NCBI GenBank assembly: GCA_015062285.1
Contig: SUUY01000001.1
Coordinates: forward strand, 30,622-94,621
Length of the DNA stretch: 64,000 nt
From: Alphaproteobacteria bacterium
GTDB lineage: Bacteria; Pseudomonadota; Alphaproteobacteria; RF32; CAG-239
Reading direction: 5' to 3'
How positions within the stretch are numbered: the first letter of the stretch is position 1; each line of letters opens with the position of its first letter. The translations under genes were made by a program, and so were the position numbers. Below are positions 9,909-9,940 of this stretch, in pieces. Below the pieces are notes generated by a model. That model saw nothing but the letters and a program-made list of their open reading frames with translations. It had not been told where the DNA came from and made no database searches.

Positions 9909-9940
9909 ACACACACACACACACACACACACACACACAC
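9909..9940. repeat. (AC)16 dinucleotide microsatellite
   Basis: 32 nt of perfect AC repeats, plus an interrupted acacatat prefix, ~50 nt upstream of the repeat-protein start. Confidence 0.95.

What the first reader, a model, noticed from the sequence alone, without database searches (positions are those of the whole stretch)
9909..9940. (AC)16 dinucleotide microsatellite ~50 nt upstream of the repeat-protein gene
A perfect dinucleotide tract of 16 units is very rare in bacterial genomes. Where such tracts occur they typically drive slipped-strand phase variation of the downstream gene, by altering promoter spacing or UP elements. They can also form Z-DNA under supercoiling. The tract lies between the upstream terminator and the -10-like tataaat at 9970-9976 of the 9993 ORF.
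Basis: seen in the sequence. Interest (0 to 1): 0.6.

Follow-up and report, generated by a model that had tools for sequence, protein, structure and literature searches.

The report
Length-variable (AC)n repeat in gene leader
A perfect run of 16 AC units sits just upstream of an orphan gene in a gut bacterium; its length differs between otherwise identical genomes, so it is a real mutational hotspot that may tune or switch that gene, though probably not by the promoter-spacing route first proposed.

Summary
The tract is real: a 33-nt perfect alternating run, (AC)16+A, at 9909-9941, preceded by an imperfect ATACACACATAT. It is the only long dinucleotide repeat in the window and in about 640 kb from 80 related species.

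It lies in a strain-variable two-gene cassette (9278-10941) inserted between rplO and secY of a gut alphaproteobacterial MAG. Terminators flank the downstream orphan gene (9993-10874), so its control region must lie in 9768-9992.

Eight contigs carry 16.5 units. One contig, identical at all 5,031 other aligned bases, carries 18.5. A strain about 1.5% diverged has 15.5 units and lacks the prefix. A more diverged relative has 12.5 units in the same conserved promoter-leader module, followed there by a strong terminator and an unrelated gene.

The conserved promoter (TTTACT-17-TGnTAGTAT, 9775-9803) lies upstream of the tract, so the tract is most likely transcribed leader. It cannot be a promoter spacer, being 33 nt against a 17-bp spacer. 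The proposed tataaat -10 would start the mRNA inside the Shine-Dalgarno sequence.

A small leader ORF (9839-9946) reads through the tract, and repeat number sets where it stops. That reading is speculative. No effect on expression has been shown.

The parts
9909..9941 (+). Perfect alternating (AC)16+A tract (33 nt); the hypervariable core
   Evidence: Other contigs carry alleles of 25, 31 and 37 nt.
9897..9908 (+). Imperfect 5' extension of the repeat, ATACACACATAT. It is absent, or pure AC, in the strain about 1.5% diverged
   Evidence: L087 and L102 read aaaatct directly followed by pure AC.
9747..9771 (+). Intrinsic terminator of the upstream orphan gene p136 (8-bp GC-rich stem plus T-run). 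It insulates the unit from upstream transcription
9775..9803 (+). Best promoter candidate for the unit: TTTACT, 17-nt spacer, TGg-TAGTAT (extended -10). Predicted transcription start near 9810
   Evidence: Unique exact match in the window. Conserved in the diverged relative L103 as TTTACT-17-TGaTATTAT. The same pattern lies upstream of the distant homologue P0004. Function is inferred, not shown.
9826..9833 (+). 5' arm (AGAGUUUA) of a possible leader helix. It overlaps the weak Shine-Dalgarno sequence AAGAG (9825-9829) of the leader ORF
   Evidence: Pairs with 9944-9951. Only one-sided A-to-G changes are seen in L102 and L103, with no compensatory pairs.
9839..9946 (+). Candidate 35-codon leader ORF (MCNSVQKQPAKYDVKVAKIY-TH repeats) that reads through the tract. 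With 16 units it stops at TAA 9944-9946
   Evidence: It was called as a gene on two small contigs (P0010, P0013). The ATG and spacing are conserved in L103. Translation is not shown.
9944..9951 (+). 3' arm (UAAACUCU) of the possible leader helix, immediately after the tract. It lies within the conserved right flank TTTAAACTCTGC
9964..9970 (+). T7 homopolymer. It aligns with the U-tail of the L103 terminator. One low-coverage contig has T6
   Evidence: L102, 1.3x coverage, so the T6 is uncertain.
9970..9976 (+). It is unlikely to be the main promoter, because the transcription start would fall in the Shine-Dalgarno sequence
   Evidence: geometry; variable distance to the tract in L103.
9983..9987 (+). 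Shine-Dalgarno sequence GGAGG of rep293, 5 nt before the ATG at 9993
   Evidence: Gene calls in 10 contigs start at this ATG.
9993..10874 (+). rep293, an orphan 293-aa charged protein (predicted beta-meander at residues 28-111 plus long helices). This is the gene downstream of the tract
   Evidence: Only one distant homologue was found (P0004).
10418..10617 (+). In-frame 36-bp coding repeats (QKLIRDAKGAAR units). Copy number differs by one unit between strains (293 aa versus 281 aa)
10902..10933 (+). Terminator-like hairpin AAAACCCGT/ACGGGTTTT after rep293, just before the right edge of the cassette
   Evidence: read directly.
9278..10941 (+). Strain-variable cassette (p136, the AC leader and rep293) between the rplO terminator and the conserved secY promoter/leader
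   Evidence: L092 carries an unrelated cassette of about 600 bp between the same flanks.

Best explanation
The tract is a genuine hypermutable dinucleotide microsatellite. It changes length by slipped-strand mispairing much faster than the surrounding DNA accumulates substitutions.

It belongs to a conserved promoter-plus-leader module of about 185 nt (window about 9773-9957). That module drives a terminator-insulated, strain-variable orphan gene (rep293) inserted between rplO and secY.

The module's promoter (TTTACT-17-TGnTAGTAT, 9775-9803) lies upstream of the tract. The tract is therefore most likely transcribed as part of a 5' leader of about 180 nt, not placed inside or upstream of the core promoter.

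In my best reading, changes in unit number act on the leader rather than on promoter spacing. They could shift the frame, and so the stop position, of a small leader ORF that reads through the tract. They could also change leader length or structure. Either way the locus behaves like a contingency locus, that is, an SSR-driven variable-expression locus.

Shown: the tract exists and is non-random; its length is polymorphic; the module is conserved while the tract length varies; terminators insulate the unit.

Inferred: which promoter is used, that the tract is transcribed, and any effect on rep293 expression.
For: 1. Length polymorphism against an invariant background.
- Eight contigs carry 16.5 units.
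- L099 carries 18.5 units, with 0 mismatches and a single 4-nt gap over 5,035 aligned columns.
- L102 and L087, a strain about 1.5% diverged, carry 15.5 units and lack the 12-nt prefix.
- L103, a more diverged relative, carries 12.5 units.

2. Three contigs begin or end within 0-26 nt of the tract (L006, L099, L087).

3. The tract is retained as a long, pure repeat in a diverged lineage.
- The flanks are 85% identical over the promoter part (9773-9832).
- They are about 95% identical over GTGAAAGTGGCNAAAATCT and 12/12 over TTTAAACTCTGC.
- The 36 nt between these conserved blocks are highly diverged.

4. The unit is bracketed by terminators (9747-9767 and 10902-10933), so control must lie in 9768-9992.

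5. The upstream promoter candidate is conserved, including its TGn extended -10. Candidate TGTACA-16-TATGAT (9850-9877) is not conserved in L103.

6. The same gene carries a second variable repeat, a 36-bp unit present in 5 or 4 copies. It also sits in a hypervariable island.

7. Transcribed intergenic SSRs acting through the 5' UTR have precedent in H. influenzae hmw1A (PMC12721329).
Against: - No expression data of any kind exist, and the transcription start is unmapped.
- All length calls come from consensus short-read assemblies. The 18.5-unit allele lies 26 nt from a contig end. The 15.5-unit allele comes from contigs at 1.3-1.5x coverage, where PCR stutter could shift the count by a unit.
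- Many of the 16.5-unit contigs may come from related samples, so the predominance of 16.5 says little.
- About 14 further contigs were hidden by the look-up tool.
- The module has only two lineages, and one of them is a 578-nt contig.
- rep293 has no signal peptide or known surface or restriction-modification role typical of phase-variable genes.
- CA-repeat leaders enhance translation in E. coli, but the effect saturates at about (CA)8 (PMC5934652). A change from 16 to 18 units need not therefore matter through leader length alone.
Confidence: 0.5

Rival explanations
1. Neutral microsatellite. A slippage-prone tract arose by chance in dispensable intergenic DNA of a recently acquired cassette. 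It varies in length simply because long repeats do, with no consequence for rep293.
For: No functional data exist. rep293 and p136 are orphans in a replaceable cassette. Predicted leader RNA structure is no better than shuffled sequence in the window (z = -0.24). The dominant allele is the same in 8 contigs.
Against: Long dinucleotide repeats are otherwise absent from the window and from about 640 kb of related sequence. The tract is kept long and pure at the same position of a conserved module in a lineage whose neighbouring leader sequence is highly diverged and whose downstream gene differs. A decaying neutral repeat would not be expected to show this.
Confidence: 0.22
2. Length-insensitive RNA element. 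The transcribed (AC)n serves as an unstructured, C/A-rich ribosome standby site or translational enhancer, or as a single-stranded loop of a leader or small RNA. Any length above a threshold works, so the polymorphism is tolerated noise rather than a switch.
For: (CA)n 5' tails boost translation in E. coli in a length-dependent way that saturates at 16-18 nt (PMC5934652). All observed alleles (25-37 nt) are above that length. In L103 the module ends in a strong terminator (-20.1 kcal/mol plus U6), as a stand-alone small RNA would. The tract is predicted to be single-stranded between flanking helix arms.
Against: The tract is 42 nt from the Shine-Dalgarno sequence, not adjacent to it. In L103 a terminator separates the tract from the downstream ribosome-binding site, so it cannot be a standby site there. 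No Rfam family matches. There are no compensatory base changes.
Confidence: 0.18
3. The tract acts at the DNA level on a promoter whose -10 is TATAAAT (9970-9976). It does so by changing spacing or helical phase of upstream elements, by acting as or displacing an UP element, or by forming Z-DNA under supercoiling.
For: The tract would occupy about -29 to -61 relative to a start near 9983. Alternating purine-pyrimidine tracts of this length can adopt Z-DNA in vitro (general knowledge). A T-run followed by TATAAA precedes the Shine-Dalgarno sequence in both lineages.
Against: A 33-nt tract cannot sit in a 17-bp spacer. The transcription start would fall in or at the Shine-Dalgarno sequence. There is no acceptable -35 at 9946-9952. 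In L103 a 47-nt terminator hairpin lies between the tract and the TATAAA, so the distance is not conserved. The simple sigma-70 scan did not report this site.
Confidence: 0.08
4. Artefact: misassembly, host (ruminant) microsatellite contamination, or a chimeric contig.
For: (AC)n is the commonest mammalian microsatellite. Some contigs break at the tract. Contigs L002 and L005 show an abrupt change from 12% divergence to 100% identity at 8579.
Against: Both flanks are bacterial and continuous. The whole intergenic region is identical in at least 7 independent assemblies from JGI and ENA. The tract lies between a bacterial terminator and a bacterial ribosome-binding site.
Confidence: 0.02

Closest known systems
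Haemophilus influenzae hmw1A/hmw2A heptanucleotide (ATCTTTC)n repeat (PMC12721329; PMC8262952)
   Same: It is an intergenic SSR upstream of a single gene and is transcribed as part of the 5' UTR. Repeat number varies between and within populations. The repeat takes part in a leader RNA structure.
   Different: The unit is 7 nt, not 2 nt. There, expression is shown to be inversely proportional to repeat number, and RNase III processing of a long hairpin is demonstrated. Here nothing is measured, the predicted helix is short, and the organism is a gut commensal MAG.
Haemophilus influenzae hifA/hifB (TA)n promoter-spacer repeat (from my own knowledge)
   Same: It is a dinucleotide repeat in the control region of a gene, and slipped-strand length changes occur.
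   Different: The hif repeat lies between -35 and -10 and works by changing spacer length. The 33-nt tract here cannot, and the best promoter candidate is upstream of it.
Moraxella catarrhalis uspA2 (AGAT)n repeat in the 5' UTR (from my own knowledge)
   Same: It is an SSR of comparable copy number in a transcribed leader and modulates expression level rather than reading frame.
   Different: The unit is a tetranucleotide and the target is a surface adhesin. rep293 has no secretion signal.
Leader-ORF transcription attenuators, especially E. coli pyrBI, where a 44-codon leader ORF runs through the terminator hairpin (from my own knowledge)
   Same: In the relative L103, a 45-codon leader ORF starting at the conserved ATG ends at a TAA inside the loop of a -20 kcal/mol terminator that directly precedes the downstream gene's Shine-Dalgarno sequence.
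   Different: The window copy has no terminator hairpin. No known attenuator uses an SSR to set the leader frame. Translation of the leader ORF is not shown.
Synthetic (CA)n 5' tails as ribosome standby sites in E. coli (PMC5934652)
   Same: The sequence is the same, is unstructured, and enhances translation in a length-dependent way.
   Different: The effect saturates at about 8 units, and the tails were directly 5' of the ribosome-binding-site hairpin. Here the tract has 16-18 units and lies 42 nt from the Shine-Dalgarno sequence.
Mycoplasma hyorhinis vlp genes (from my own knowledge)
   Same: They combine a hypermutable repeat in the control region with in-frame coding repeats that vary in copy number in the same gene.
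   Different: Vlp proteins are surface lipoproteins with a promoter poly(A) spacer. rep293 lacks a signal or lipobox sequence, and its tract is not in a spacer.

Membership tests
SSR-driven contingency (phase-variable) locus | A long, pure simple sequence repeat in the control region or 5' end of a gene | tested here: met
   33-nt perfect tract ending 51 nt upstream of the ATG, inside the only possible control interval 9768-9992.
SSR-driven contingency (phase-variable) locus | Repeat number differs between very closely related genomes or within populations | tested here: met
   16.5 versus 18.5 units with 0 other differences over 5,035 aligned columns; 15.5 and 12.5 units in more distant relatives. 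Caveat: these are consensus assemblies, and some alleles lie at contig ends or at 1.3x coverage.
SSR-driven contingency (phase-variable) locus | Repeat-number change alters expression of the associated gene | not testable with these tools
   No transcript, protein or reporter data are available.
SSR-driven contingency (phase-variable) locus | High-frequency, reversible switching within a clonal population | not testable with these tools
   This needs read-level or single-colony counts. Contig breaks at the tract (L006, L099, L087) are only suggestive.
Promoter-spacer SSR (hif, porA or vlp type) | Repeat located between the -35 and -10 hexamers so that its length sets the spacer | tested here: not met
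   The tract is 33 nt against a 16-18-bp spacer. No -35/-10 pair brackets it.
5'-UTR SSR (hmw or uspA2 type) | Repeat lies downstream of the transcription start and is part of the mRNA leader | tested here: inconclusive
   The only promoter-like element conserved between lineages (9775-9803, with TGn) is upstream of the tract. No transcription-start data exist.
Leader-peptide transcription attenuator | Short ORF with a start codon and ribosome-binding site in the leader | tested here: inconclusive
   The ATG at 9839 with weak AAGAG 9 nt upstream is conserved in L103 (AAGGG). The peptide is not conserved outside VKVAKIY(TH)n. Translation is unproven.
Leader-peptide transcription attenuator | Intrinsic terminator between the leader ORF and the regulated gene | tested here: not met
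   The window region 9942-9992 folds to only -4.6 kcal/mol. The feature is met only in the relative L103 (-20.1 kcal/mol plus U6).
Z-DNA-forming element | Alternating purine-pyrimidine tract long enough to flip under negative supercoiling | not testable with these tools
   The sequence requirement is met (33 nt of alternating A/C). Formation in vivo cannot be assessed.
Known RNA family (Rfam) | Match at or above the gathering score | tested here: not met
   No gathering-level hit in the window. E-value scans gave only repeat-driven noise such as mir-297.

The most novel reading that the evidence does not exclude
The (AC)n tract is the frame-setting element of a small leader ORF, making a phase-variable attenuator or translational-coupling switch. 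Every frame of (AC)n encodes Thr-His repeats. The unit number modulo 3 decides where the ribosome stops.

In the relative L103:
- n = 12 carries the ribosome into the loop of a strong terminator that directly precedes the downstream gene. This is a pyrBI-like geometry that predicts read-through.
- n+1 stops translation 5 nt after the tract, which predicts termination.
- n+2 stops it 36 nt after the tract.

In the window:
- n = 16 stops at 9946.
- n = 17 stops at 9956.
- n = 18, the allele seen in L099, reads across the Shine-Dalgarno sequence and ATG of rep293 and stops at 10008.

The same promoter-leader-SSR module would then be a portable, stochastic expression switch placed in front of unrelated cassette genes.
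Probability: 0.15. Interest if true: 0.8.

Novelty: new member of a known kind. Interest (0 to 1): 0.5.

Why it matters
SSR-driven contingency loci are known almost entirely from host-adapted pathogens such as Haemophilus, Neisseria, Campylobacter, Helicobacter and Mycoplasma. Long dinucleotide AC tracts are very rare in bacteria.

This one sits in an uncultured, low-GC gut alphaproteobacterium, inside a hypervariable cassette lodged in the ribosomal spc operon. It varies in length between otherwise identical genomes, and a diverged relative retains it within a conserved leader module.

If the length changes do alter expression, stochastic SSR switching extends to gut commensals and to genes of unknown function. 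If the leader-ORF reading is right, it would be a new way of coupling slipped-strand mutation to attenuation.

At the least, the locus is a ready-made strain-tracking marker, with two independent variable repeats, for this lineage in metagenomes.

Tried and rejected
1. Metagenome-contig scans. The right-flank DNA pattern gave 0 hits. A protein alignment of rep293 with its homologue gave 600 pattern hits, none confirmed. The collection evidently lacks these samples.

2. Viral-contig scans with two module patterns. One gave 0 hits. The other gave a single match inside a phage coding sequence, about the number expected by chance.

3. Annotation of the flanking orphans. Pfam, PHROGs, NCBIfam and PADLOC returned nothing credible for p136, rep293 or the L092 cassette gene. 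An exhaustive HMMER search found one distant homologue, P0004; the remaining hits matched only the low-complexity repeat region. The AlphaFold model had pLDDT 70, and Foldseek against the PDB found nothing below E = 0.04.

4. RNA structure of the window leader. It folds no better than shuffled sequence (z = -0.24). L103 gives z = -1.99, mostly from its terminator. Rfam gave nothing.

5. Promoter candidate TGTACA-16-TATGAT (9850-9877). Rejected because it is not conserved in L103.

6. Minus-strand ORF 9776-9940 (54 aa, reading (GT)n). Treated as spurious, since it was never called in any contig.

7. Other copies of the module. None was found in the window or in the other fetched loci.

8. Origin of the JGI samples. 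The goat-faeces enrichment paper (PMC8007473) was checked, but its main text holds none of the sample IDs. How independent the samples are therefore remains unknown.

9. About 14 further contigs carrying the locus could not be viewed, because the look-up tool collapses places whose neighbouring genes are the same.

Full report
**1. The observation**

The window reads aaaatct-ATACACACATAT-(AC)16A-tttaaactctgctgag at 9890-9957.
- The perfect alternating run is 9909-9941, 33 nt or 16.5 units.
- Tandem Repeats Finder extends it to 9899-9941 because of the imperfect prefix.
- The 12-mer ACACACACACAC with up to 1 mismatch hits 13 times, all within the tract. Shuffles predict 0.21 hits.
- A regex scan finds no other dinucleotide repeat of at least 6 units in the 64-kb window, which is 37.6% GC. 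About 640 kb of the equivalent locus from 80 related species contains none.

**2. The context**

The tract lies in the spc ribosomal-protein operon. The gene order is:
- S5 (7861-8424), L30 (8427-8612) and L15 (8753-9205);
- two orphans with no family match, p136 (9316-9726) and rep293 (9993-10874);
- SecY (11064-12413), Adk, S13, S11, RpoA and L17.

The exact rep293 protein is annotated in NCBI as a hypothetical protein of an Alphaproteobacteria MAG (E7019_00285, MBE6444483.1).

In 80 related gut and rumen alphaproteobacterial MAGs (SecY 79-94% identical), the rplO-secY distance ranges from 113 bp to more than 4 kb, and the content is unrelated from one MAG to the next.

A close relative (L092, GCA_045543475.1) shows the cassette boundaries. 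Its L15 is identical, its flanks are 98% and 94% identical, and it carries a different cassette of about 600 bp between window positions about 9277 and 10941. So p136, the tract and rep293 form a replaceable cassette.

Transcription signals in the cassette:
- The rplO terminator (9230-9257) is followed by a -35 TTGCAA in the conserved flank. Each cassette supplies its own -10.
- p136 ends in a strong terminator (9747-9767).
- rep293 is followed by a hairpin plus T-run (10902-10933).
- secY then has its own conserved promoter and leader.

rep293 is therefore an insulated unit, and its control region must lie in 9768-9992, the interval that holds the tract.

**3. Is the length variable?**

I collected every contig I could reach through exact-protein look-ups of rep293, its 281-aa variant, p136, L15 and SecY.

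| Allele | Source | Notes |
|---|---|---|
| 16.5 units, with 12-nt prefix | Window; JGI 3300023371, 3300018494, 3300018495, 3300018427; ENA ERZ27248306, ERZ27248314, ERZ27248446 | The whole 266-nt intergenic region is 100% identical |
| 18.5 units (37-nt run), with prefix | L099 (JGI 3300022753, 16-kb contig) | 0 mismatches and one 4-nt gap over 5,035 aligned columns |
| At least 9.5 units, no prefix | L087 (ENA ERZ25021401; 98.5% identical strain) | Reads aaaatct directly followed by pure AC, and the contig ends inside the tract |
| 15.5 units (31-nt run), no prefix | L102 (ENA ERZ25021433; same strain type as L087) | Also T6 instead of T7 at 9964-9970; coverage 1.3x |
| 12.5 units (25-nt run) | L103 (ENA ERZ27297782, 578-nt contig) | A more diverged relative |

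I found L102 and L103 by searching the protein database with the plus-strand peptide that reads through the tract. That route picked up two small contigs on which this small ORF had been called as a gene.

Three contigs start or stop within 0-26 nt of the tract (L006, L099, L087).

Caveats:
- These are consensus short-read assemblies.
- The 18.5-unit allele lies near a contig end.
- The 15.5-unit allele comes from very low coverage.
- About 14 contigs were not shown by the tool.
- The samples may not be independent. I could not confirm their origin.

Even so, the only difference between two otherwise identical 5-kb sequences lies in the tract.

**4. A conserved module**

L103 aligns with the window from the -35 hexamer to just past the tract.
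- TTTACTTAATCTTAAAA(A/G)TATG(G/A)TA(G/T)TAT is 85% identical over 60 nt.
- It is followed by ATATGTGT, then a 36-nt stretch of equal length but very different sequence.
- Next come GTGAAAGTGGC(A/T)AAAATCT, the tract, and TTTAAACTCTGC.

After that, L103 has a 47-nt insertion that folds into a terminator of -20.1 kcal/mol followed by U6. Then come TATAAAGGAG and the ATG of an unrelated ORF. The equivalent window stretch (9942-9992) has no hairpin (-4.6 kcal/mol), and its T7 aligns with the L103 U-tail.

So a long, pure AC tract is retained at the same place in a conserved promoter-leader module in two lineages, with different lengths and in front of different genes. That is hard to reconcile with a decaying neutral repeat.

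**5. Where is the promoter?**

- TTTACT-17-TGgTAGTAT (9775-9803) is the only exact match to TTTACW-N17-TAGTAT in the window.
- It is conserved in L103 as TTTACT-17-TGaTATTAT, with the TGn extended -10 kept.
- The same pattern lies about 30 nt upstream of the Shine-Dalgarno sequence of P0004. P0004 is the one distant homologue of rep293 (34-36% identity, no 12-aa repeats). It also sits between rplO and secY in another species and has no SSR.
- The conserved secY promoter shows that this clade uses sigma-70-like promoters with TG next to the -10.
- The alternative TGTACA-16-TATGAT (9850-9877) is not conserved in L103.
It has no credible -35, and in L103 a terminator hairpin separates it from the tract.

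I therefore infer, without proof, a transcription start near 9810 and a leader of about 180 nt that contains the tract. A 33-nt tract cannot be a -35/-10 spacer in any case.

**6. How might length matter?**

(a) Leader ORF. ATG 9839, with AAGAG 9 nt upstream (AAGGG in L103), opens an ORF that runs through the tract. Every frame of (AC)n encodes Thr-His repeats.

| Lineage | Unit number | Where the leader ORF stops |
|---|---|---|
| Window | n = 16 | TAA 9944-9946 |
| Window | n = 17 | 9954-9956 |
| Window | n = 18 (the L099 allele) | 10006-10008, after crossing the Shine-Dalgarno sequence and ATG of rep293 |
| L103 | n = 12 (native) | A TAA in the loop of the terminator hairpin |
| L103 | n = 13 | 5 nt after the tract |
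| L103 | n = 14 | 36 nt after the tract |

The L103 geometry resembles the pyrBI attenuator, where a translating ribosome prevents terminator formation (my own knowledge). The observed alleles 12, 15 and 18 share one frame, and 16 is in the frame that stops immediately. This is attractive but rests on two lineages. The peptide is not conserved apart from VKVAKIY(TH)n, and translation is unproven.

(b) Leader structure. AGAGUUUA (9826-9833, overlapping the leader ORF's Shine-Dalgarno sequence) can pair with UAAACUCU (9944-9951). AUGUGU at the start codon can pair with the last AC units. Together these give about -14 to -15 kcal/mol in the window, L102 and L103. The only substitutions are one-sided A-to-G changes, so there is no covariation support.

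(c) Unstructured CA enhancer. (CA)n tails raise translation in E. coli, but the effect saturates at about 8 units (PMC5934652). This would give a length-insensitive role.

(d) DNA-level effects such as Z-DNA or helical phasing cannot be tested here.

**7. The downstream gene**

rep293 is a charged 293-aa protein with no signal peptide.
- It is predicted (pLDDT 70) to form a six-stranded beta-meander at residues 28-111 followed by long helices, with no structural match.
- Its 36-bp in-frame repeats (10418-10617) differ by one unit between strains, giving 293 aa or 281 aa.
- A hypervariable control-region repeat combined with a variable coding repeat in a hypervariable island is what contingency loci typically look like. 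The function of the protein is unknown, though, and it does not look like a classical surface antigen.

**8. Verdict**

- The general idea of a slipped-strand hypervariable repeat attached to the downstream gene is supported as far as sequence data can go.
- The specific mechanism (promoter spacing, an UP element or the tataaat promoter) is not supported.
- The best reading is a hypermutable SSR in the transcribed leader of an insulated cassette gene: a new member of the SSR contingency-locus kind in an unusual organism and with an unusual repeat unit.
- The most novel reading not excluded is an SSR-set leader-ORF frame that controls attenuation or coupling.
- Interest is moderate. There is real variation and a conserved module, but no functional data and few lineages.

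Noticed in passing
window 10953-11063: The roughly 110 nt upstream of secY are conserved across about 55 related species, whatever lies upstream. The region holds a -35 TTGMAT (window 10970-10975), a spacer of about 16 nt, TG-TATTAA (10990-10997), and then a hairpin (window AGGGATA/TATCCCT, 11011-11028). The hairpin stem sequence changes in a compensatory way between species (GGACT/AGTCC, GGAGCT/AGCTCC, GGGGC/GCCCC). A U-rich stretch, the Shine-Dalgarno sequence AAGGA and the ATG at 11064 follow. There is no Rfam match. It may be a conserved secY leader element.
   Followed up: partly
window 9206-11063; loci L007-L086: The rplO-secY junction is a synteny break or variable island in this gut alphaproteobacterial clade. 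The gap ranges from 113 bp to more than 4 kb and holds unrelated genes on both strands. These include six PilS/bundlin-like type IV pilin ORFs and HD, NUDIX and methyltransferase genes. Where L15 is not within 4 kb, housekeeping genes (RuvB, RecR, AlaRS) lie there instead.
   Followed up: partly
window 6993-8578 versus 8579 onward (L002, L005, L094, L095): Some contigs differ from the window at well over 150 sites in L6, L18, S5 and L30, roughly 12% divergence. From 8579 onward they become 100% identical apart from the 36-bp unit. Several other contigs (L003, L087, L096) start at window 8657. This is either a recent recombination tract shared between two co-resident lineages or chimeric contig starts.
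   Followed up: partly
window 10418-10617: The 36-bp in-frame repeat in rep293 (12-aa unit QKLIRDAKGAAR) differs in copy number between otherwise identical contigs, giving 293 aa or 281 aa. The distant homologue P0004 lacks these repeats altogether.
   Followed up: yes
window 9964-9970; L102 571-576: The T7 homopolymer between the tract and the Shine-Dalgarno sequence is T6 in one contig. That contig has 1.3x coverage, so the difference may be a sequencing error. The T-run aligns with the U-tail of the terminator in L103.
   Followed up: partly
L100 3001-3735 (GCA_964328135.1); L101: The only detectable homologue of rep293 (P0004, 244 aa, 34-36% identity) also sits between rplO and secY in another species and is followed by a 382-aa orphan. 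Its 466-nt upstream region contains direct repeats of a CAAAATTC..GTGTAC..CTAAAATTTTC motif, which I did not analyse.
   Followed up: no
L046 3524-3540; L040 3817-3827; L015, L048, L062, L082 (positions below 4001): Several related species carry long homopolymer tracts (A17, T11, T10) in the variable region just upstream of secY. These could be further hypermutable sites in the same island.
   Followed up: no
L104 5215-5234 (IMGVR_UViG_3300032893_003198): A 20-nt exact match to the tract's left flank (GTGAAAGTGGCAAAAATCTA) lies inside a viral-contig coding sequence and encodes the same peptide, NVKVAKIY. About one such match is expected by chance in a collection of this size, so I treated it as coincidence.
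   Followed up: partly
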